Origin: Bacilli bacterium
GTDB taxonomy: Bacteria > Bacillota_I > Bacilli_A > RF39 > UBA660
DNA length: 64,000 nucleotides
Direction of reading: 5' to 3'
Assembly (NCBI GenBank): GCA_028707455.1
Contig: JAQWAY010000001.1
Coordinates: 9,764 to 73,763, forward strand
Shown: positions 13,882 to 62,508 of the stretch, in pieces
Position numbering within the stretch: the first letter of the stretch is position 1
Layout: each line of letters starts with the position of its first letter
Notes under the pieces: generated by a model
Seen by the model: only the letters and a program-made list of their open reading frames with translations
What the model was told of the DNA's origin: nothing
Databases searched by the model: none
Position numbers and translations under genes: made by a program

Positions 13882-13901
13882 AAAGAGCAAATGCTCTTTT
13901 A
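13882..13901. terminator. Perfect hairpin AAAAGAGCAaatGCTCTTTT at the 3-prime end of the giant gene
   Basis: A palindrome flanked by A and T runs overlaps the stop codon. Confidence 0.5.
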
Positions 13902-16900
13902 ATTATTGTTATGTATTATATCACTTGAAATTATACTTGTGTTTCCAGATATATCTTTTGCATATATCCATAATTTCCAATTAAGAATTCCATCTCCTAA
14001 AAGTCTTCTTTCAAAAATTGTGTTGTTTTCGAAAGTTGATGCAAGATTCTTCCACGCCCATTCTTTAGGCGTCCAATAAGGATTTTCTGACCAAATATAT
14101 TTCAATTCAGAAATTGCATCTTTATCTTCAACATTAACTAAAATATCAACATCCGAAAATGGTATTGTTATACAACCTAGCCATCCACATTTTTTATTAC
14201 TACCTCTAGTATATATTGGATCATTTATTTTTATAGTAGGAACAGTTGTATCCACTACACTAACAATTGTATTCTTTCCTAATGATCTAATTTCACCTTT
14301 TTCAGTACTTAGTACATATTGATATTCTAATTTATAATCTCCCTTTTGATCTTTATTAAATCTATTAGGAAGAGGATTTATAAAAAATTTTTCATCTTCA
14401 CTAATTGTAACTGTAGCTTGTGGTGCAATAAAGTCTTCCCCAAGTTCATGTTCAAAATTTTCAGGAGCAGTTACTAATGGTCTAATAAATACTAATCTTT
14501 CCTTTGTAGCTGTATTACCTGCACGATCAGTAGCTTTATATGTAATAGTGTATACACCTGCTACCTTATCATTAATACTACCTTCAGTAGTTACTTCAAT
14601 TTCACCATCAGCATTATCAGTAGCTGTAGCCCCATGTTCTACATATGTAGATTTTCCATAATCATATGTATAAGACCCATCTGATACTTTTAGATTAATA
14701 ACAGGTAATGTATTATCAATATTAAATGAATTAGTTCTATAATATATGATATTACCAACTTTATCTTCTATCATAAACCACAGATAATATATTCCGTTTG
14801 GATTTGAAATAACTTCTTTTATATTTTTGGGATATTTAACAAAATTTGTTGAACCATCTGTATTAATAATGATAGTAAATTCACTATCTTCAGGTTGTTC
14901 TGCAGAAGTAGTCCATACGTATTTAATACCTGCATTTGCGTTTAATCCTTCTTTTGCATTTACAGTTATTCTCGGACGACCACCTTGACCCGAATCCATT
15001 ACAGGATCAACTTTACCATTATTTAATACTTTAGTTATTTTTATTACATCCCTATCAATTTTGTCAATTATAATTTCTTTTTTATTGATATTTCCTGCGA
15101 AATCTTTAACCCAAATATTTACTGTTTGATTTTCAGTATAGGTTGCTGTTGTTTTTGTTCCCCATGTAGTTCCACCATCAAATGAATATGGTGATTCTGC
15201 AAGCATTTCACTATTATCCGTTGCATTGATAGTTAATACTACATCTTTATTTGTTAAGTTTTCTGGATTTCCACTTATTGTTACATCTGGTAATGTATTA
15301 TCAATATTAAATGAATCAGTTCTATAATATAGTTCATTACCATACGCATCTTCTATTTTATACCATAAGTAATATATTCCAGTGATAGGCCTCTTAAAGA
15401 AATTTCCTGATGTGTTAGCATTTACCCAGTTATATTCTTTATTCATATTTACTGATTTTACAAATTCTTCATCCATTGGTTGTTCTGCAGAAGTAGTCCA
15501 TACATATGAAGTTTTATATCCCGCTGTATATGTCTTCACACGAAGCCTGATATCATTATCAGCACCTTTTATTGGTAGTGTACTTCCATTACCAGTATTT
15601 CCACCAATTTTTATTATTTCTATTACATTTCGATCAATTTTATCAATTACAATTTCCTTTTTACTGATATTTCCCACATAATCCTTGACCCAAATATTTA
15701 CCGTTTGATTATCAGCGTAGCTTGCTGTTTTTTCTGTTCCCCATGTAGTTCCACCATCAAATGAATATGGTGATTCTGAAAGCATTCCGCTATTATCTGT
15801 TGCATTGATAGTTAATACTACATCTTTATTTGTTAAATTAGTAGGATTTCCAATTACATTAACCACTGGCGCTTCATTATCTAAATAAAACTCATATTCA
15901 GTTTCATTGCCAGCTTTATCTCTTAATATTAAGGTATTATTACCAGCTTTTCCAAAATATTTATTTGTAGAAACAGCATTGATATCTCCCCAGCTATTAC
16001 TAGATTTATCTAATAATGTACCATTCAAGTCAGCCTCTTTCAAGTTTTCATCAAATAGTTTAAATGATATATTACTGAAATATGGTTCATTACCTATTGA
16101 TTCCTTTTTAACTGTTATAGTTGGTTTTATACTATCAAATATAATATAATCTCTATTTGATACAGTTGTATATTCTTTTCCTTCATTACCAGCAATATCT
16201 TTATATCCACTAACTTTAAATGGTATATTTTCATTTTGTTTTAAATTGCTAGCAACATCTTCAGTTATAGTTAAATAATATGCATAATAAACATTACCAC
16301 TAGTATCCTTTGATACAGTGTACTCTTTAATGGTGACACCAGCTATTGTAACAACCGGGAATGTAGATAATTGTTCAGTATAACTTAGTTTCAAGTATAG
16401 TCTTGTTCCAATAGTTGCGTAATGATCAGTTGCATTGATTCTAAAAATTCTTTGATTTGCATTAGGAGCTGTTTTATCAATTGTGAAAGTTACTGTTGTA
16501 CTATGATTTGCTTTATCTGTTACAGTTATTGTATGTGATCCTTCTTCTGAAACAACTCCTGTTCTAGGGGTTTTTTCATCATAAGTGACACCATCAATAA
16601 TTATATTTCTTACATTTTTTTCAATGATTTCATACTCAATATCAACATTGTATAAACCATTATTTTCTACCCCGTTAATAACTGGAGCAACTTTATCTAT
16701 TCTTTTAACTTCAAAGTTAATAGTATTTGGATTACCTATTAAATCTTTTATATCAACTGAATATTTACCATTTTCAGCAAATACCCTTGTAAATGTTTTA
16801 CTATTTACTCTATTCCATCCTTCAATATCTTGGATTTCTTCATTTGCCGTTAAAGTTACAATTACGTCATTAGGTGTTACAGCATTACCATTATTATTTG

Positions 16901-18992
16901 AGAATGTTTTTTCAGCCAGTGGAGCTGTTTTATCCACTATAAAATTATATGTGTTTAAATTTCCAGCAGCATCACTAAAATCAATGCTTATATCCTTTGT
17001 TCTATAGTAATAATTGTAATATGTATTATTACCCAATGATCTCCATTCACTCTTACTTTTTGTAAAACCTGTAACATCTTCACTAAATTGAATAGTTACC
17101 TTAATTCTACCCTTTTCTTTAGCTTCGTATGTTTGATTAAAATCAATAACTTCAGGACGTTCATTATCAAATACAAATGGTCCAGCATTACTTACTATTC
17201 CGTTATTAGCGTTATCTTGAGCGTACACCCATAAATAATAAGTTCCATTTAAATTAGATGGTGCCACTGCTATTAATGGATCTTCTTCGTTATTTTCTAA
17301 ATGAGTTTGAATACTTATAGACTCAATACCTTCAGAAGCTTCTAACCATTGATATCTTAATTGTTTGATACCACTTAAATCACTTGCACTTAAAGTTACA
17401 TTATGATTTTGGCTTGATTCACCACTTGTACTTCCAAAATTAATTGTTGCTTTTGTCTTATCAATATTAGTTATTTCATATGTTACTTCATCTGAAATAT
17501 TTCCAGCAACATCTTTTACTCTTACGGTTACTGCTTGATTCTTTTTAAATGTTGCAAAATTTTCAGTTTGCCATTCGCCACTATTAAATTGGTATCCTGC
17601 AATACCACCGTGATCTTCAGCATTAACTGTTAAAATTATATCTTTATTAATTGGATTTTCATTGTTTGAAGTTATAGTTATATTTTTGGGTGCTTCATTA
17701 TCTAAATTAAATCCTTTTGTTCTTACTACTTCTTGATTCCCAGCCTTATCAGTAGCGACTACAACTAAATAATAAGTTCCTGTTTCTCCTTTAGGAGTAT
17801 ATAAATCTTTTGTATTTTCAAAGGTCGCAAATGATGAATCATTTATGTCAATATTTTGATTTTTTGTCCATACATATTTAAGTGAATCTGTATTGAAACC
17901 ACTTAAATCATCAGTAACAGTTGCTGCTCTTGCATGAGCTTTACGATAGTGATTTGAATAATTAACATAATTTAATTTAATTATTGGTGCTAATTTATCA
18001 ATATTATCGATAGAACCTTCTGATAAAGCAACAGTTTTTACTATATCATGATTAAAACTAACACATGCTACATAGTTACCATTTTCAGTAGCTACATATG
18101 AATATTCATCAGTTATTTCTTTAGCAACCATTTCTAGAAGACTAAAAATACTCATTGGTTTAGTATCTTCATCTTCTACTTCACAAGTGTTTCCTTGCTT
18201 AAATTCAATATTTTGAATTAAGTCTTTATCATAATTTGAAACATTTAATTTTAATGTAATATCTTTATTAGTCCATTCTGTAGTGCTTGGATCTAATGTT
18301 AAGATTGCATTATTAATTGCTTCTATTTCTTCTTCTAATTTTGTAATATCATTAAGTAAGTTTTGAATTGAATTTACTGATGTTAATTTATTACTAACAT
18401 TAGCTTTATTAAGTTCATCTTCATTACCAATTATTCCTTGTAATTGATTTAATAAATCTTTTAAATTATTATTAAGATTTTCATCCTCTGAATAATTACC
18501 TAAAAGTTTATTACTATTAGTAATTGCATTACTTAACTTTGTATTAATCTTCTTGTCAATACTGTTGATTAGATTAGAAATTGTAGTAGTTTGTGTATTA
18601 ACATTTGCTTGAGTAGTATTTCTAGTATTTAATAAAGTTTTAGCTTTCTTAATTTCTAGTTCAAGCGAATTTAGTAAACTTACTAATTCTTCATCTTCTG
18701 TTTCTATTTTTTCATAGCTGTCGGTGCTATTTACGGCTGTTTGTAAAGTTCCATAGTTGGTAACTACGTTTTGTTGTACTGGTACAACATTTTTTTCTTC
18801 TTCTGTTTTTTTAGTTTCTTCTTGAGGTGCTTTTTCATCATCTTTTTCCTTTTCACCATTGTTATTGTCTTTTTCATGGCTATCTGGATCTTTGACTTCA
18901 TTTAAATCTTCGTTTGGATTAGCAAACGTAAATACAAACAATCCAATTAATACGAACAACACAATAGCGAAAATTCTTTTCCTGTTTATCAT
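13899..18992 (-). CDS. Giant surface protein of 1697 aa: N-terminal signal anchor, coiled-coil region, and more than 10 cadherin-like/Ig-like beta-sandwich repeats
   Basis: An N-terminal hydrophobic anchor (IFAIVLFVLIGLFVFTF) is followed by a K/E/N-rich coiled-coil segment. Repeated modules then carry YYLxVxAxDxAGN and FN(I/L)DN(E/T)(A/L)P junction motifs reminiscent of cadherin DxNDN linkers. There is no LPXTG motif. RBS: GGAGGAAAATTAT then ATG. Confidence 0.6.
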   Translation of the reverse strand: MINRKRIFAIVLFVLIGLFVFTFANPNEDLNEVKDPDSHEKDNNNGEKEKDDEKAPQEETKKTEEEKNVVPVQQNVVTNYGTLQTAVNSTDSYEKIETEDEELVSLLNSLELEIKKAKTLLNTRNTTQANVNTQTTTISNLINSIDKKINTKLSNAITNSNKLLGNYSEDENLNNNLKDLLNQLQGIIGNEDELNKANVSNKLTSVNSIQNLLNDITKLEEEIEAINNAILTLDPSTTEWTNKDITLKLNVSNYDKDLIQNIEFKQGNTCEVEDEDTKPMSIFSLLEMVAKEITDEYSYVATENGNYVACVSFNHDIVKTVALSEGSIDNIDKLAPIIKLNYVNYSNHYRKAHARAATVTDDLSGFNTDSLKYVWTKNQNIDINDSSFATFENTKDLYTPKGETGTYYLVVVATDKAGNQEVVRTKGFNLDNEAPKNITITSNNENPINKDIILTVNAEDHGGIAGYQFNSGEWQTENFATFKKNQAVTVRVKDVAGNISDEVTYEITNIDKTKATINFGSTSGESSQNHNVTLSASDLSGIKQLRYQWLEASEGIESISIQTHLENNEEDPLIAVAPSNLNGTYYLWVYAQDNANNGIVSNAGPFVFDNERPEVIDFNQTYEAKEKGRIKVTIQFSEDVTGFTKSKSEWRSLGNNTYYNYYYRTKDISIDFSDAAGNLNTYNFIVDKTAPLAEKTFSNNNGNAVTPNDVIVTLTANEEIQDIEGWNRVNSKTFTRVFAENGKYSVDIKDLIGNPNTINFEVKRIDKVAPVINGVENNGLYNVDIEYEIIEKNVRNIIIDGVTYDEKTPRTGVVSEEGSHTITVTDKANHSTTVTFTIDKTAPNANQRIFRINATDHYATIGTRLYLKLSYTEQLSTFPVVTIAGVTIKEYTVSKDTSGNVYYAYYLTITEDVASNLKQNENIPFKVSGYKDIAGNEGKEYTTVSNRDYIIFDSIKPTITVKKESIGNEPYFSNISFKLFDENLKEADLNGTLLDKSSNSWGDINAVSTNKYFGKAGNNTLILRDKAGNETEYEFYLDNEAPVVNVIGNPTNLTNKDVVLTINATDNSGMLSESPYSFDGGTTWGTEKTASYADNQTVNIWVKDYVGNISKKEIVIDKIDRNVIEIIKIGGNTGNGSTLPIKGADNDIRLRVKTYTAGYKTSYVWTTSAEQPMDEEFVKSVNMNKEYNWVNANTSGNFFKRPITGIYYLWYKIEDAYGNELYYRTDSFNIDNTLPDVTISGNPENLTNKDVVLTINATDNSEMLAESPYSFDGGTTWGTKTTATYTENQTVNIWVKDFAGNINKKEIIIDKIDRDVIKITKVLNNGKVDPVMDSGQGGRPRITVNAKEGLNANAGIKYVWTTSAEQPEDSEFTIIINTDGSTNFVKYPKNIKEVISNPNGIYYLWFMIEDKVGNIIYYRTNSFNIDNTLPVINLKVSDGSYTYDYGKSTYVEHGATATDNADGEIEVTTEGSINDKVAGVYTITYKATDRAGNTATKERLVFIRPLVTAPENFEHELGEDFIAPQATVTISEDEKFFINPLPNRFNKDQKGDYKLEYQYVLSTEKGEIRSLGKNTIVSVVDTTVPTIKINDPIYTRGSNKKCGWLGCITIPFSDVDILVNVEDKDAISELKYIWSENPYWTPKEWAWKNLASTFENNTIFERRLLGDGILNWKLWIYAKDISGNTSIISSDIIHNNN
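14700..15880. repeat. Tandem near-identical duplication (2 x ~590 bp) inside the giant surface-protein gene
   Basis: DNA at about 14703-15290 is highly similar to about 15289-15880. For example, ggtaatgtattatcaatattaaatgaat at 14703 matches the run at 15289, and a long near-identical run ...ccccatgtagttccaccatcaaatgaatatggtgattctg... occurs in both copies. The protein copies are NLTNKDVVLTINATDNS...YSFDGGTTWGT...NIWVKD. Confidence 0.8.
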
Positions 18993-37716: not shown

Positions 37717-37745
37717 TAAAAAAAAGTAATTAAATTACTTTTTTA
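37717..37745 (-). terminator. Hairpin AAAAAAAGTAATTaaATTACTTTTTT overlapping the noc-like stop codon
   Basis: A perfect 11-bp stem is followed by a T run in minus-strand orientation. Confidence 0.5.
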
Positions 37746-39417
37746 TTTTAAATATTACTTGATATATATCTTCAAAATCTATTTCTTCAATTTCAACATC
37801 AAATCCAATACCTTCTACCTTAGTACCACATTCTCTAATAATATCTATAGCATCCTTTAATACTTTACCTTCTTGAAGTATTGGTTCAACTATTTTTTCC
37901 TCTTCAATATCTTGATTTATATTATTAACTGGTTCAATTGCCTCATCAGTAGTTGATGCAATTGGCTCAAAAGGATTATTGAAAATTGGGTTTAGTGTCT
38001 CAACCTCAGTAGTTATTTGTGGTTGATCTTGTTCTTTTGGTTGCATTGGAATATCTATAGGTTGAACTGGAACTTCCACTGGTTGTGCTTGTTCTAAAGG
38101 TTGTACTAATGCTTCCGCTGGCTGAAAAGGTACATCACTTGGAAGTGGTGTTTCTATAATAGGCGAATCATTATTAACTGATTCTGCTGGTTCTGTTTCT
38201 GGTTCTTCATTTAAAATATCAAAGAACTTTCCTGGAGTTAATATGTTTTCTGGTTGTTCTACTTCAAAATCAAAACCAACATTATTATTATTATTATTAT
38301 TATTATTTTGAGCTGCAAAAGCTGAATCTGGCTCTAATAATGAGTTAACGTCAGCTAAAGGTTTATCTTCATTTATATTTTTAGCTTCCGTTGCAATTTT
38401 TTCTATATTCATAAAACCAGGATTAATTTCATTATCTATTTGTTCTTCAATAAAAATAGGTTCTTCTGATTTAGTTTCCTCTACTTTTTCTTCTGGTTGT
38501 TCTACAATAGGAGTACTTGGTAGATTAATTGATTCTTCAATATTCTCATTTATTATAGGTGAAGATGGAAGATTAACTGATTCTTCAACTTTATCATCTA
38601 TTATTGAAGAAGTTGGTAAATTTAAATTAGATGGAGTATTAAAAATATCAACTGTTGGTTGTTCAATATTATTATTCATTGAGTTATTCCTTTCTTCAAT
38701 TGGTCGTATTCCTAAAATGGAATCAACCGTTGGTGAAAACGTATTTTCTTCTGTTGGTTGTTCAAAAGCACTTACATCTAACACTTCAACTTCATCGGAA
38801 GAAACAACATCATTTTGATTCAATATTTTATCAATTTCGTCATCTGTTTTTCTAACTGTTAGTCTATTATCTATTATTTTATTTAATATTTCTATTTGTT
38901 GACTACTCTTATTAAGTCTTAAAATAGATCGTGCATGTCTTTCTGATATTTTTCCTTCTAATAATGCTTCTTGGACATCTTCATGTAAATTTAATAATCT
39001 TAATTTATTAGCTATTGTTGATTGCTTATTTCCTAACTTGCTAGCTAATTGTTCTTGAGTAAACCCCATATCTAAAATCTTTTTATATGATATAGCTTCT
39101 TCAATTGGTGTTAAATCTTGTCTTTGAACATTTTCAATTAAGGCTACTTCAGCACTATCTTTATCATTTAAATCAGTTATAATAGCAGGTATACTATTTT
39201 TACCAGCTAAAACACTAGCTTTATATCTTCTTTCTCCAGCTATTATTTCATATTTATCACCAATTGCTCTAACCACAATAGGTTGAATTACTCCATGTTC
39301 TTTTATTGATTCAGATAATTCATTTATTGCTTCTTCGCTAAACTTAATTCTTGGTTGAAAACGATTTGGTAAAATATCCGCAAGATTTAATTCAGTTATT
39401 CTTTTCTCAATATCCAC
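37735..39417 (-). CDS. noc: Noc-type ParB-family nucleoid occlusion protein homolog with an atypical ~370-aa acidic low-complexity C-terminal extension
   Basis: Residues 1-190 form a ParB N-domain plus HTH: PNRFQPRIKF, GERRYKA, and GNKQSTIANKLRLLNL...ISERHAR. From memory these match B. subtilis Noc (PNRFQPRTIF; QSTIANKLRLLKL) better than Spo0J (PNPYQPRKHF). The gene lies directly downstream of rsmG, as noc does. The rest of the protein is a P/E/Q/N-rich disordered region with a poly-Asn run. Confidence 0.7.
   Translation of the reverse strand: MDIEKRITELNLADILPNRFQPRIKFSEEAINELSESIKEHGVIQPIVVRAIGDKYEIIAGERRYKASVLAGKNSIPAIITDLNDKDSAEVALIENVQRQDLTPIEEAISYKKILDMGFTQEQLASKLGNKQSTIANKLRLLNLHEDVQEALLEGKISERHARSILRLNKSSQQIEILNKIIDNRLTVRKTDDEIDKILNQNDVVSSDEVEVLDVSAFEQPTEENTFSPTVDSILGIRPIEERNNSMNNNIEQPTVDIFNTPSNLNLPTSSIIDDKVEESVNLPSSPIINENIEESINLPSTPIVEQPEEKVEETKSEEPIFIEEQIDNEINPGFMNIEKIATEAKNINEDKPLADVNSLLEPDSAFAAQNNNNNNNNNVGFDFEVEQPENILTPGKFFDILNEEPETEPAESVNNDSPIIETPLPSDVPFQPAEALVQPLEQAQPVEVPVQPIDIPMQPKEQDQPQITTEVETLNPIFNNPFEPIASTTDEAIEPVNNINQDIEEEKIVEPILQEGKVLKDAIDIIRECGTKVEGIGFDVEIEEIDFEDIYQVIFKIKK
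38281..38307. repeat. (ATT)9 microsatellite, which is (AAT)n on the coding strand, encoding the poly-Asn run inside noc-like
   Basis: The run attattattattattattattattatt is in frame, so slippage would change only the Asn count. Confidence 0.8.
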
Positions 39418-39452
39418 ACTATACAGCCCCTTTTTATTCTTTCAAATATATA

Positions 39453-39508
39453 ATACTATATATTGGGAAATATTACAATAGTTTTGGGAAATATTCTGTT
39501 TCTTTTTT
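39453..39508. promoter_or_regulatory. Three direct repeats TTGGGAAAT(A/G)TT, which are NBS half-sites GGGAAAT, in the noc-like promoter region
   Basis: Copies lie at 39453-39464, 39474-39485 and 39497-39508, spaced 21-23 bp apart, between the noc-like start codon at 39417 and the rsmG terminator. Confidence 0.6.
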
Positions 39509-39527
39509 GGGAAATGTTTTTTCTATT

Positions 39528-46255: not shown

Positions 46256-46448
46256 TAGTGGAAAAAAATACTCACAAATATGTTTTCCACAGTATTTTGT
46301 TTTTTTATTTATATATATTTAATATCTTTTAACTAGTTTTCCACAAATGTGTGGAAAAGTTATGAACTTTTATATGTTAATAACTTTTTTTCCACTTTGT
46401 ATGTGGAAAAGTGTCTTTTATGAATGTTTTTAATAACTTTTTTCCACA
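46256..46448. promoter_or_regulatory. oriC, the DnaA-box cluster upstream of dnaA
   Basis: At least seven TTTTCCACA, TTTTCCACT or inverse TGTGGAAAA boxes lie at 46256, 46284, 46337, 46349, 46387, 46402 and 46440, in both orientations. An AT-rich tract sits at 46300-46326. Confidence 0.75.
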
Positions 46449-55417: not shown

Positions 55418-55576
55418 TGTTTCACGTGAAACAAAATAATACATACAATGTTCCACGTGAAACTTTAATTAGTGAATCATTAATTATAAAAATTGTTTCA
55501 AAATTCAACGTTCCACGTGAAACAATTACAATTAGATATAAAATAACTAAAAAAAAGTAATGTTCCACGTGAAACG
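55418..55576. promoter_or_regulatory. Cluster of four parS centromere-like sites
   Basis: TGTTTCACGTGAAACA lies at 55418-55433, TGTTCCACGTGAAACT at 55449-55464, CGTTCCACGTGAAACA at 55509-55524, and TGTTCCACGTGAAACG at 55561-55576. All match the Firmicute parS consensus tGTTNCACGTGAAACa with 0-1 mismatches. Confidence 0.8.
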
Positions 55577-55619
55577 TTACTTTTTTATATACATTTATAT
55601 TCAAAAAACTAAAATTAAC

Positions 55620-55633
55620 ATTTCCCGGGAAAT
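55620..55633. promoter_or_regulatory. Noc-binding-site (NBS) palindrome ATTTCCCGGGAAAT
   Basis: It is a perfect 14-bp palindrome identical to the B. subtilis NBS consensus. It is a rare GC-rich word in this AT-rich DNA. Confidence 0.7.
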
Positions 55634-61662: not shown

Positions 61663-62508
61663 ATGTCACAAAAAAGTTACGATAATAGTCCAACTTTATA
61701 TTTAATACCTACTCCAATTGGTAATATGGATGATATTACTCTAAGAGCAATTAATATATTAAAAGAAGTAAAAGTAATATTTTCGGAAGACACAAGAGTA
61801 ACTGGATTATTATTAAGTAAATTAGGTATTAAAAAAAAGACAATTGCTAATCATGAATATAATGAGAAAAAAAATATGGAATTAGCTATTAAATATTTAA
61901 ATAATGGTGATAGTATTGGTCTAGTTAGTGATCGAGGAACCCCCATTATTAGTGATCCTGGTTATGAAATAACTAAATATGTTATTGAACAGGGGTATAA
62001 TGTTGTTTCACTACCTGGAGCAACAGCATTAATCCCAGCTTTAACAGTTTCTGGAATCAGTCCGATGCCTTTTCTATTTTATGGTTTTTTAAATAGTAAT
62101 GAAAATAAAAGAATAAAAGAATTAGAAAATTTAAAAAATGTAAAGGCAACTATAATCTTTTATGAAGCACCTCATCGTATTCATAAAACGTTGGGAAATG
62201 TTTTAAATGTTTTTGGAAATAGGGAAATTTGTATTTCCCGGGAAATAACTAAAAAGCACGAAGAGGTTTATCGTGGAACTGTCAAAGATGTTTTAGAACA
62301 AATTGTTGACATTAAAGGTGAAATTGTTTTAGTTGTATCTGGTAATAATAAAGGGGAAAACTATGACAACTGTACACTTATTGAACATATTGAACAATAT
62401 ATTGCCGATGGTTACAAAGTTATGGATGCAATTAAGGCAGTGAGTAAGGATCGTAATCTTAAAAAAAGCGATGTCTATAATGAATATTTAAAATATAAAG
62501 GTAGATGA
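61663..62508 (+). CDS. rsmI: 16S rRNA (cytidine1402-2-prime-O)-methyltransferase RsmI
   Basis: It has the tetrapyrrole-methylase fold and LYLIPTPIGNMDDITLRA. Confidence 0.85.
   Translation: MSQKSYDNSPTLYLIPTPIGNMDDITLRAINILKEVKVIFSEDTRVTGLLLSKLGIKKKTIANHEYNEKKNMELAIKYLNNGDSIGLVSDRGTPIISDPGYEITKYVIEQGYNVVSLPGATALIPALTVSGISPMPFLFYGFLNSNENKRIKELENLKNVKATIIFYEAPHRIHKTLGNVLNVFGNREICISREITKKHEEVYRGTVKDVLEQIVDIKGEIVLVVSGNNKGENYDNCTLIEHIEQYIADGYKVMDAIKAVSKDRNLKKSDVYNEYLKYKGR
62233..62246. promoter_or_regulatory. Second NBS palindrome ATTTCCCGGGAAAT, inside the rsmI coding sequence
   Basis: It is identical to the 14-mer at 55620. Confidence 0.65.

What the first reader, a model, noticed from the sequence alone, without database searches (positions are those of the whole stretch)
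37735..39417. Noc ortholog lacking the N-terminal membrane helix but carrying a 370-aa acidic, Pro/Glu/Gln/Asn-rich C-terminal extension
The N-terminal 190 aa align well with Noc-specific blocks (PNRFQPR; QSTIANKLRLL) rather than with Spo0J. Two differences from canonical Noc stand out. The protein starts immediately at the ParB fold, with no equivalent of the ~10-30-aa amphipathic membrane-targeting peptide. It also has a very long disordered acidic tail with internal repeats (ESVNLPSSPIINENIEESINLPSTPIVEQPEE) and a poly-Asn run, ending in a small conserved-looking module (KVLKDAIDIIRECGTKVEGIGFDVEIEEIDFEDIYQVIFKIKK). In the canonical order soj-spo0J would follow noc, but here uvrB follows directly. 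This could be an undescribed architectural variant of the nucleoid-occlusion/ParB system. In it, membrane or partner attachment would be provided C-terminally, or the tail would act as a spacer or tether.
Basis: partly seen in the sequence, partly recalled or inferred. Interest (0 to 1): 0.75.

Follow-up and report, generated by a model that had tools for sequence, protein, structure and literature searches.

The report
Noc with giant acidic clamp linker
This gene encodes the nucleoid-occlusion protein Noc of an uncultured gut-type Bacilli lineage; it lacks the usual N-terminal membrane anchor, and its normally ~20-residue linker is a ~310-residue acidic disordered stretch, so it must work somewhat differently from the textbook Noc.

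Summary
The 560-aa ORF (37735-39417, minus strand) is real and was assembled independently three times.

**It is Noc, not Spo0J.**
- It groups with canonical Noc at 100% bootstrap.
- It carries the NBS-specificity residues Q-K-N-R.
- The window holds two perfect NBS sites.
- In six related genomes the ortholog is followed by a bona fide soj-spo0J pair.

**The membrane helix is absent.** An in-frame stop lies 24 nt upstream of the start codon. All 120 homologs and all 75 species-level orthologs have the same short N-terminus.

**The "C-terminal extension" is misread.**
- The last ~40 residues are the canonical Noc dimerisation domain (hhalign probability 94%; same alpha-beta-beta topology).
- The ~310 acidic residues (net charge -57) are therefore an expansion of the DBD-CTD linker. 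In ParB that linker walls the DNA-entrapping compartment and is reported as "invariably ~20 aa" and lysine-rich.
- Linker length varies from 165 to 583 aa across the family.
- The linker carries three conserved short motifs, including an invariant [KR]FF. These motifs occur in no other protein family.

**Verdict.** This is a new architectural variant of a known protein, found clade-wide in RF39-like Bacilli. How it acts is inferred, not shown: most likely through partner or membrane contact via the linker motifs.

The parts
37735..39417 (-). noc ortholog, 560 aa (NCBI MDD4607549.1, annotated only as a ParB/RepB/Spo0J family protein)
   Evidence: ORF. Exact protein found in four sources. Noc clade at 100% bootstrap.
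39427..39433 (-). Shine-Dalgarno AAAGGGG, 9 nt upstream of the GTG start; an in-frame TGA at 39442-39444 closes the frame upstream
   Evidence: Read directly from the sequence. Homolog N-termini align from residue 1.
39124..39417 (-). Residues 1-98: ParB N-terminal CTPase domain, starting 16 residues before PNRFQPR. No MTS, alpha2 or loop. FQPR, GERRxKA and ENVQRxDL boxes are invariant.
   Evidence: Pfam ParB_N, E 2.4e-33. Invariant columns. Short N-terminus in 120/120 homologs.
38797..39120 (-). Residues 100-207: HTH DNA-binding domain with specificity residues Q132, K138, N143, R160 (Noc QKKR pattern with K184 replaced by N)
   Evidence: HTH_ParB, E 1.8e-32. Alignment to Noc and Spo0J structures. 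Rule from PMC7383237. Family counts.
37867..38796 (-). Residues 208-517: expanded DBD-CTD linker, disordered, net charge -57
   Evidence: pLDDT <50. Composition. No family hit. Length 165-583 aa in homologs.
38500..38628 (-). Residues 264-306: three 16-aa repeats, each carrying motif A (N-[IL]-P-[ST]-x-P-I-[IV]-[DE])
   Evidence: Regex and sequence. Motif A conserved at 86-89% per column in 120 homologs.
38329..38427 (-). Residues 331-363: motif B (NPGF[MV][DN][IV]xxIExxAxDI..EKPxADxxxLLxP), partly helical
   Evidence: F335 99% and I341 90% conserved. pLDDT 57-69, helix 338-344. Alignment A3.
38281..38307 (-). Residues 371-379: poly-Asn, a perfect (AAT)9 microsatellite
   Evidence: TRF, 9 copies, 100% match.
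38200..38241 (-). Residues 393-406: motif C ([LI]xPG[KR]FF[NST][LIM]xxEEE)
   Evidence: F398 and F399 invariant, K/R397 invariant in 120 homologs. Exactly one [KR]FF per protein in 119/120.
37738..37866 (-). Residues 518-560: canonical Noc C-terminal dimerisation domain (helix 520-536, strands 540-547 and 552-559)
   Evidence: hhalign probability 94%, E 2.4e-8; HMM positions 250-288. TIGR04285 positions 215-255. pLDDT 92-94. Same topology in B. subtilis Noc model.
39463..39515 (-). Three same-orientation NBS half-sites ATTTCCCAA, 21-23 bp apart, in the rsmG-noc intergenic region
   Evidence: Relatives carry a full NBS 77-300 bp upstream of noc in 11 of 75 loci.
55620..55633 (.). Perfect Noc-binding site ATTTCCCGGGAAAT
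   Evidence: 0 matches in 100 shuffles.
62232..62247 (.). Perfect 16-bp Noc-binding site TATTTCCCGGGAAATA

Best explanation
**What it is (shown).** This is the Noc-lineage paralog of ParB in an uncultured, low-GC, RF39-like Bacilli genome.
- It keeps an intact CTP-binding N-domain.
- It keeps an NBS-specific HTH domain.
- It keeps the canonical C-terminal dimerisation domain.

**How it differs from canonical Noc (shown).** Both changes are clade-wide.
1. The N-terminal amphipathic membrane-targeting helix and the alpha2/loop that follow it are absent.
2. The DBD-CTD linker is ~17 aa with net charge +5 in Bacillaceae Noc. Here it is a ~310-aa disordered polyanion (net charge -57).
3. That linker carries three conserved short linear motifs: A ('N-I-P-x-x-P-I'), B (a ~33-aa partly helical element) and C ('G-[KR]-F-F').

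**How it most likely works (inferred).**
- It loads at NBS sites concentrated around the origin, binds CTP and closes into a sliding clamp, as Noc and ParB do.
- The two linkers that wall the DNA-entrapping compartment are each up to ~100 nm in contour length.
- The contact that canonical Noc makes with the membrane through its N-terminus is replaced here by the linker motifs. These would recruit a partner: a membrane-associated or division protein, or the membrane itself.
- The acidic disordered chain would serve as a long flexible spacer or steric-electrostatic brush around Noc-coated DNA.
For: **Identity**
- TIGR04285 is the best family, at 277.7 bits.
- Noc structures are the best sequence and fold matches.
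- NJ tree: Noc plus this family forms a clade at 100% bootstrap; the Spo0J clade stands at 99%.
- Q132, K138 and R160 are present in 120/120, 116/120 and 120/120 homologs. PMC7383237 shows that Q173, R201 and one lysine suffice for NBS specificity.
- The window has two perfect NBS sites against 0 in 100 shuffles, and they contain the only two CCCGGG in 64 kb.
- Relatives have 26 NBS sites (<=1 mismatch) in 1.28 Mb of flanks, against my rough base-composition estimate of ~0.1 by chance (the count is). 24 of these sites lie upstream of noc.
- Six relatives have the order noc-soj-spo0J, with a Spo0J carrying the LG[RK]GL motif and the R...G specificity residues.

**Architecture**
- The CTD is equivalent to the canonical one.
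- There is no MTS.
- Linker statistics, and a graded series: 17 aa/+5 in canonical Noc, 52-132 aa/-10 to -19 in the sister clade, 165-583 aa at about -0.17 per residue in this family.

**Motifs under selection**
- F398 and F399 are invariant and F335 is 99% conserved, inside otherwise unalignable sequence.
- The B-C profile matches only 152 of 1.84 billion cluster representatives. Nearly all listed matches have the length and match position of this family, and the nine short ones I read are its C-terminal fragments; three long, weak matches were not inspected.

**Literature context**
- The N-terminal helix is needed for B. subtilis Noc function and was conserved in all Noc proteins examined (PMC4331003; PMC8429893).
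- The ParB linker forms the DNA-entrapping compartment and is "invariably ~20 amino acid" and lysine-rich (PMC8367383).
Against: - No experiment or computation here shows CTP binding, clamp closure, membrane binding or any partner.
- Motifs B and C carry net negative or zero charge, which is unfavourable for binding anionic membranes.
- A PSSM built from the canonical MTS does not score motif C above shuffled linkers (z ~0-0.6).
- Motifs B and C are found in only about half of the 75 species-level orthologs ([KR]FF in 37/75). They cannot explain the clade-wide loss of the MTS.
- Linker length is very variable, and one segment is a pure microsatellite, which fits weak constraint on most of the chain.
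- Presence of Spo0J/Soj in this genome is only inferred from the parS cluster.
Confidence: 0.55

Rival explanations
1. **Degenerate or repurposed Noc.** In this fast-evolving, genome-reduced lineage Noc has lost membrane tethering. It acts only as an origin-proximal DNA clamp, for example in origin organisation or replication control. The long linker is mostly neutral low-complexity expansion driven by AT-rich slippage, without a tethering role.
For: - Linker length ranges from 165 to 583 aa and is mostly unalignable.
- The poly-Asn run is a perfect (AAT)9 repeat.
- [KR]FF is found in only 37 of 75 species orthologs.
- NBS sites in relatives cluster next to the origin-side genes mnmE-mnmG-rsmG rather than being scattered.
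- These orders have faster evolutionary rates and reduced envelopes (PMC10868615).
- S. aureus Noc has a replication-control role (title of PMC5540599).
Against: - Residues F335, F398 and F399 are invariant or nearly so, and a ~33-aa conserved element sits inside the linker across 120 homologs.
- Negative charge is consistent in every member, from -0.08 to -0.23 per residue.
- The gene is retained, with a long linker, in a 1.2-Mb circular genome (L014).
- Reduced genomes normally delete useless sequence.
Confidence: 0.25
2. **Acidic linker as an intramolecular DNA mimic or lubricant.** The polyanionic chain competes with non-specific DNA for the basic surfaces of the DBD and CTD, or repels DNA inside the clamp lumen. 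This would sharpen NBS specificity, speed sliding or roadblock bypass, or prevent bridging and condensation. No external partner would be needed.
For: - Charge inverts from +5 per 17 aa to -57 per 310 aa in exactly the segment that lines the DNA-entrapping compartment.
- The trend is graded across the sister clade.
- The linker lysines of ParB were proposed to track DNA (PMC8367383).
Against: - This does not explain the sequence-specific conserved hydrophobic motifs (NIPxxPI, GF[MV]D, [KR]FF).
- It does not explain the loss of the membrane helix.
- No computation here addresses electrostatics.
Confidence: 0.12
3. **It is the chromosome-partition ParB (Spo0J) of this organism.** It would bind the parS cluster near gyrA.
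For: - It is the only ParB-family gene in the 64-kb origin window.
- Four parS sites lie 16 kb away.
- NCBI names it a ParB/RepB/Spo0J family protein.
Against: - It groups with Noc at 100% bootstrap, apart from Spo0J.
- It has Q and R, not R and G, at the two specificity-switching positions.
- It lacks the LG[RK]GL ParA-binding motif.
- Relatives encode a separate canonical Spo0J next to it.
Confidence: 0.03
4. **Assembly artefact or frameshift fusion of two genes.**
For: The length is unusual and a low-complexity microsatellite sits inside the ORF.
Against: - The identical 560-aa protein comes from independent assemblies.
- 120 homologs and 75 species genomes share the order NTD-DBD-linker-CTD.
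- The C-terminal piece is the dimerisation domain that every ParB/Noc needs.
Confidence: 0.01

Closest known systems
Noc (nucleoid occlusion protein; Bacillus subtilis YyaA, Geobacillus thermoleovorans Noc; TIGR04285; PDB 7NFU/7NG0/7OL9/6Y93)
   Same: - Same evolutionary clade (100% bootstrap).
- 50-53% identity over the NTD and DBD.
- CTP-binding boxes intact.
- NBS-type specificity residues Q, K, R.
- Perfect NBS sites in the genome.
- Gene sits directly after rsmG.
- Homologous alpha-beta-beta C-terminal domain.
   Different: - No N-terminal amphipathic helix, alpha2 or loop. That segment is described as Noc-specific and, in B. subtilis, necessary for function.
- Linker of 310 aa with net charge -57, instead of 17 aa with net charge +5.
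- Three conserved linker motifs that are absent from canonical Noc.
- K184 is replaced by N.
- Falls below the TIGR04285 cutoff (277.7 < 315).
- soj-spo0J is not adjacent in this genome.
Chromosomal ParB / Spo0J (B. subtilis Spo0J 6SDK, T. thermophilus 1VZ0, C. crescentus ParB 6T1F)
   Same: - Same NTD-DBD-linker-CTD architecture.
- Presumably the same CTP-gated clamp cycle, with DNA held in the DBD-CTD compartment.
   Different: - Different paralog.
- No LG[RK]GL ParA-binding motif.
- Q and R instead of R and G at the specificity positions.
- The ParB linker is reported as invariably ~20 aa and Lys-rich; here it is ~15 times longer and acidic.
Disordered tethers carrying short linear motifs in bacterial division and replication proteins (for example the FtsZ C-terminal linker plus conserved C-terminal peptide, or the SSB acidic tail). 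From my own knowledge; not tested here.
   Same: A variable-length, low-complexity disordered chain carries short conserved hydrophobic motifs. This is the pattern expected of an entropic spacer that presents partner-binding peptides.
   Different: - Here the disordered chain is internal, between two folded domains of a DNA clamp, not a free tail.
- No partner is known.
- The resemblance of motif A (N-I-P-[ST]) to the FtsZ peptide (D-I-P-x-F-L), and of motif C (G-[KR]-F-F) to the ParB LG[KR]GL and Noc S-R-F-F peptides, is by eye only.

Membership tests
Noc (nucleoid occlusion protein, ParB/Noc family) | ParB-type N-terminal CTPase domain with conserved boxes (FQPR, GERRxRA, ENLQRxxL) | tested here: met
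   Pfam ParB_N, E 2.4e-33. R19-R23, G61-R64, E95, N96, Q98 and R99 are invariant in 120 homologs.
Noc (nucleoid occlusion protein, ParB/Noc family) | NBS-specificity residues Q173, K179, K184, R201 (Caulobacter ParB numbering; PMC7383237) | tested here: met
   Q132, K138, N143, R160 = QKNR. The paper reports that a lysine at either 179 or 184 is sufficient together with Q173 and R201. Three of four residues are identical; binding itself was not measured.
Noc (nucleoid occlusion protein, ParB/Noc family) | Phylogenetic placement with Noc, separate from Spo0J/ParB | tested here: met
   NJ tree, 100 bootstraps: Noc plus this family 100%; Spo0J clade 99%.
Noc (nucleoid occlusion protein, ParB/Noc family) | Cognate NBS sites (ATTTCCCGGGAAAT) present in the genome | tested here: met
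   Two perfect sites in the window against 0 in 100 shuffles. 26 sites (<=1 mismatch) in 1.28 Mb of relatives' flanks. Genome-wide distribution and a terminus gap are not testable with 64 kb.
Noc (nucleoid occlusion protein, ParB/Noc family) | N-terminal amphipathic membrane-targeting helix (aa 1-15, MKHxFSRFFGLG), followed by alpha2 and a loop | tested here: not met
   Only 16 residues precede PNRFQPR, and an in-frame stop lies upstream. It is absent in 120/120 homologs, 75/75 species orthologs and 31/31 sister-clade proteins. It is present in 32/32 Bacillaceae Noc.
Noc (nucleoid occlusion protein, ParB/Noc family) | C-terminal dimerisation domain | tested here: met
   hhalign probability 94%, E 2.4e-8 over 48 columns; HMM positions 250-288 align to residues 522-560. 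Same predicted topology. Dimerisation itself was not tested.
Noc (nucleoid occlusion protein, ParB/Noc family) | Curated whole-protein score for TIGR04285 | tested here: not met
   277.7 bits against a cutoff of 315. The shortfall comes from the missing N-terminus and the interrupted C-terminus. This is why NCBI names it only a ParB/RepB/Spo0J family protein.
Noc (nucleoid occlusion protein, ParB/Noc family) | Gene order rsmG-noc-soj-spo0J near oriC | tested here: inconclusive
   rsmG-noc is kept, about 7 kb from oriC. uvrB follows here. soj-spo0J follows noc in 5 of the 80 related loci and lies nearby in a sixth.
Noc (nucleoid occlusion protein, ParB/Noc family) | CTP-dependent clamp formation, membrane binding and division inhibition | not testable with these tools
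   Needs biochemistry and cell biology.
Chromosomal ParB / Spo0J | N-terminal ParA-binding motif (L/F/I)G(K/R)G(L/F/I) | tested here: not met
   The N-terminus is MDIEKRITELNLADIL. The motif is present in the relatives' second ParB (ALGRGLEELF). Motif definition from PMC12704722.
Chromosomal ParB / Spo0J | parS-specificity residues R173 and G201 | tested here: not met
   Q and R at these positions.
Chromosomal ParB / Spo0J | ~20-aa lysine-rich DBD-CTD linker | tested here: not met
   310 aa, net charge -57. Rule from PMC8367383.

The most novel reading that the evidence does not exclude
In a large uncultured gut-associated Bacilli clade (RF39-like), nucleoid occlusion no longer uses an N-terminal membrane helix. 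Instead, Noc presents partner-binding peptides from inside a ~100-nm acidic linker that also forms the wall of its DNA-entrapping compartment. Motif C (G-[KR]-F-F) and/or motifs A and B would dock onto a membrane-associated ATPase or an FtsZ anchor (MinD/ParA-like, FtsA or SepF), or directly onto the membrane. This would be a distinct way of coupling a CTP clamp to the division machinery. It would also be a natural experiment showing that the ParB/Noc clamp tolerates a lumen more than 15-fold larger and of opposite charge.
Probability: 0.25. Interest if true: 0.75.

Novelty: new variant of a known kind. Interest (0 to 1): 0.5.

Why it matters
Two features treated as near-universal in the ParB/Noc field are both broken here, across a whole clade.
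- The N-terminal amphipathic helix is held to be necessary for Noc function.
- The DBD-CTD linker that walls the DNA-entrapping compartment is described as "invariably ~20 aa" and lysine-rich, with unknown significance.

The family spans linkers from 165 to 583 aa, with a sister clade at 52-132 aa. This gives a ready-made natural series for asking what linker length and charge do to clamp loading, sliding, roadblock bypass and bridging.

It also poses a concrete question: how is nucleoid occlusion achieved without the membrane helix? The conserved linker motifs are specific, mutable targets for partner hunting.

Practically, these proteins fall below the curated Noc threshold and are annotated only as generic ParB. 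Noc is therefore probably under-called in RF39-like genomes.

Tried and rejected
1. **Is motif C a relocated membrane-targeting sequence?** A PSSM from 32 canonical Noc N-termini put its best linker hit in register with [KR]FF in 29-67 of 120 proteins, depending on PSSM span. Scores did not exceed shuffled linkers (median z 0.26-0.64). I kept this only as a lead. Hydrophobic moments are similar (0.46 vs 0.43), but the charge is -1 vs +2.
2. **Known domains in the linker.** No Pfam or NCBIfam hits.
3. **Other protein families sharing motifs B-C,** as a clue to a common partner. A profile search of 1.84 billion representatives gave 152 hits; nearly all fit this family by length and match position, and the nine short ones I read are its C-terminal fragments.
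4. **A second ParB or a ParA in the window.** None found. I could not reach the rest of the genome, so Spo0J/Soj presence is only inferred from the parS cluster.
5. **FtsZ in the window or in the 80 loci,** to compare its C-terminal peptide with motif A. None present.
6. **Cultured organisms with this architecture.** A search seeded with the short-linker sister protein returned only uncultured MAG and metagenome proteins.
7. **Prior descriptions.** Literature searches found none. The library excludes most subscription papers.
8. **Structure model limits.** The AF2 full-length model gives only pLDDT and secondary structure. I could not inspect whether motif B docks on a folded domain.
Full report
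**Observation**

The window is a 27% GC chromosome segment spanning the replication origin. GC skew flips at about 46 kb. Five TTTTCCACA DnaA-box variants lie at 46283-46448, upstream of dnaA.

On the minus strand the gene order is rnpA-yidC-jag-(HD protein)-mnmE-mnmG-rsmG, then the ORF in question at 37735-39417, then uvrB.

The ORF is 560 aa with a GTG start. An AAAGGGG Shine-Dalgarno sits 9 nt upstream. An in-frame TGA lies at 39444-39442, so no N-terminal extension is possible. The identical protein is on record from NCBI (MDD4607549.1), ENA, Logan and JGI assemblies, which excludes an assembly artefact.

**What the folded parts are**

- Residues 6-98 are ParB_N and residues 100-198 are HTH_ParB.
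- The best curated family is TIGR04285 nucleoid_noc, at 277.7 bits against a cutoff of 315.
- The best solved relatives by sequence are Noc 7ng0/7nfu (207-210 bits), ahead of Spo0J 1vz0 (180-183) and 6sdk (166-169).
- The AlphaFold2 model's best Foldseek match is 7nfu (E 1e-20, target TM 0.70, 53% identity).

Because these scores are not far apart, I built a tree. It used the NTD and DBD of the window protein, 20 close homologs, 12 Bacillaceae Noc proteins, G. thermoleovorans Noc, two Spo0J structures, and both ParB-family genes from six related genomes. Noc plus this family forms a clade at 100% bootstrap. The relatives' second ParB groups with B. subtilis Spo0J at 99%.

Those six relatives (L009, L039, L057, L060, L069, L070) also carry a Walker-A ParA gene and a 292-298-aa Spo0J: directly after the Noc-like gene in five of them, and about 8 kb away on the opposite strand in L070. 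That Spo0J has the ALG[RK]GLEELF motif and the R...G specificity residues. The long protein is therefore the positional and phylogenetic Noc ortholog.

**DNA specificity**

Jalal et al. 2020 (PMC7383237) showed that Q173, K179, K184 and R201 define NBS specificity, and that a lysine at either 179 or 184 suffices. The window protein has Q132, K138, N143 and R160. Across 120 homologs these positions are Q in 120, K in 116, N in 105 (K in 10), and R in 120.

The sequence agrees with this:
- The window has two perfect ATTTCCCGGGAAAT sites, at 55620 and 62233. The second is the full 16-mer TATTTCCCGGGAAATA.
- None occurred in 100 dinucleotide shuffles.
- These two sites contain the only two CCCGGG hexamers in 64 kb.

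In 1.28 Mb of flanks from 80 related genomes there are 26 sites with at most one mismatch. 24 of them lie upstream of noc, mostly at recurring offsets (about -77 to -300, -2700 and -4100).

**The N-terminus**

Canonical Noc begins MKHPFSRFFGLGEKE. Adams et al. 2015 found this segment extremely conserved in all Noc proteins examined, and found that NocN-delta10 is non-functional. Jalal et al. 2021 describe alpha1, alpha2 and the following loop as Noc-specific.

The window protein has only 16 residues before PNRFQPR. The same holds for:
- 120/120 close homologs, where 118 have 14-17 residues before PNRFQPR and the two longer N-termini were not inspected;
- 75/75 complete orthologs in GTDB species representatives, once naive upstream ORF extensions are discounted;
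- 31/31 proteins of a shorter sister clade.

**The "extension"**

The last ~40 residues are the ordinary Noc C-terminal domain:
- They align to the end of TIGR04285, positions 215-255 of 255.
- They align to positions 250-288 of an HMM built from canonical Noc (i-E 1.3e-4).
- The family's C-terminal profile aligns end to end with the canonical one (hhalign probability 94%, E 2.4e-8).
- The predicted topology is the same: helix 520-536 and strands 540-547 and 552-559 (pLDDT 92-94), against helix 241-259 and strands 265-270 and 275-280 in modelled B. subtilis Noc.

What is new, therefore, is the DBD-CTD linker, residues 208-517:
- It is predicted disordered.
- It has no family hit.
- Its net charge is -57, with 22% D+E and 3.5% K+R.

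In Bacillaceae Noc this linker is 17 aa with net charge +5. In the sister clade it is 52-132 aa with net charge -10 to -19. In the window's family it is 165-583 aa (median 294), at about -0.17 charge per residue.

For ParB, this linker forms the DNA-entrapping compartment and was reported as "invariably ~20 amino acid", with lysines over-represented and significance unknown (PMC8367383).

**Motifs inside the linker**

Within otherwise unalignable sequence, three islands are conserved in the 120 homologs:
- **A**: x-N-[IL]-P-[ST]-x-P-I-[VI]-[DE].
- **B**: about 33 aa, NPGF[MV][DN][IV]xxIExxAxDI..EKPxADxxxLLxP. F335 is 99% conserved. AF2 gives pLDDT 57-69 and a short helix.
- **C**: [LI]xPG[KR]FF[NST][LIM]xxEEE. 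F398 and F399 are invariant, and position 397 is always K or R.

A profile of B-C searched against 1.84 billion cluster representatives matches only 152 at E<=0.001. Nearly all listed matches have the length and match position of this family, and the nine short ones I read are its C-terminal fragments; three long, weak matches were not inspected. The motifs are therefore private to this family.

Their reach is limited: [KR]FF is found in 37 of 75 species-level orthologs. More distant members have different linker content, although A-like Phi-P-T-x-x-P-I-x-[DE] strings recur.

**Mechanism**

Shown:
- It is a Noc-lineage ParB-CTPase with intact nucleotide-binding boxes, NBS-type specificity residues, cognate sites in the genome, and a dimerisation domain.

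Inferred from the family:
- It loads at NBS sites and closes into a CTP-dependent sliding clamp that holds DNA between the DBD and CTD.

Inferred from the anatomy:
- The membrane helix is gone, and conserved hydrophobic peptides sit in a long flexible polyanion. The contact needed for occlusion is therefore most plausibly made by these peptides, with the chain acting as a spacer or brush.

I tested the attractive idea that motif C is the relocated membrane-targeting sequence (S-R-F-F-G-L against G-K-F-F-N-L). It has no statistical support, and the motif's local charge is unfavourable for anionic membranes. A protein partner is at least as likely as direct lipid binding.

Rivals are neutral low-complexity expansion in a repurposed, origin-proximal Noc, and an intramolecular DNA-mimic or lubricant role for the polyanion. 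Neither is excluded.

**Taxonomy and literature**

- All 80 related loci come from uncultured "Bacilli/Tenericutes/Mollicutes" MAGs, mostly from gut samples. The window's own sample is a fermentation metagenome.
- One locus is Candidatus Coprovivens, placed in GTDB order RF39 (PMC8035907).
- RF39 is predicted to retain a thin peptidoglycan wall (PMC10868615).
- I found no description of an MTS-less or long-linker Noc in the searchable library. This includes a 2025 survey of the ParB-CTPase fold.

**Verdict**

The finding is real, and the Noc call and the missing helix are correct. The domain reading needs correcting: this is an expanded acidic linker, not a C-terminal extension with a new module.

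It is a new architectural variant of a known protein, conserved across a substantial uncultured clade, with an inferred but untested mode of action. It is of moderate interest generally. It is of clear interest to the ParB/Noc field, because it breaks two supposedly constant features at once.

Noticed in passing
window 55418-55633 (gyrA-tadA intergenic region): Four parS sites lie within 160 bp: a perfect TGTTTCACGTGAAACA at 55418 and one-mismatch copies at 55449, 55509 and 55561. A perfect NBS follows at 55620. No ParA or second ParB is encoded in the 64-kb window, so a parS-binding Spo0J is presumably encoded elsewhere. Centromere and Noc sites sit side by side about 9 kb from oriC.
   Followed up: partly
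window 39463-39515 (rsmG-noc intergenic region): Three same-orientation NBS half-sites (ATTTCCCAA) lie 21-23 bp apart, just upstream of the noc start. In 11 of 75 related loci a full NBS (<=1 mismatch) lies 77-300 bp upstream of noc. This suggests a conserved Noc site at its own gene, either for autoregulation or as a loading site.
   Followed up: partly
window 62191-62247 (inside the rsmI-like gene 61663-62508): A perfect 16-bp NBS, TATTTCCCGGGAAATA, is preceded by two extra GGGAAAT half-sites at 62193 and 62222.
   Followed up: no
loci L003-L082, 0-6 kb upstream of noc: NBS sites recur at fixed offsets inside the conserved origin-side genes (about -2700 and -4100 bp from noc). Only one lies in the ~10 kb downstream of noc, about 9.2 kb away in L035. 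NBS sites in this clade may be concentrated at the origin rather than scattered.
   Followed up: partly
window 46283-46448: Five TTTTCCACA DnaA-box variants lie upstream of dnaA (46501), coinciding with the GC-skew switch. This is the likely oriC.
   Followed up: partly
window 38281-38307: The poly-Asn run inside the noc linker is a perfect (AAT)9 microsatellite. It is a likely hotspot for in-frame length variation.
   Followed up: partly
window 13899-18992 (minus strand): A 1697-aa ORF whose only Pfam match is a single bacterial surface Ig-like domain near residue 1450. It is probably a large surface protein and is otherwise uncharacterised.
   Followed up: partly
loci L060 and L069 (Noc-like ORFs, linker region): The linker contains 'KPFSFADRLM'. 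By eye this resembles the canonical Noc N-terminal K-x-P-F-S-R-F-F peptide more than motif C does. It sits next to an A-like 'MPTEPIII' string.
   Followed up: no
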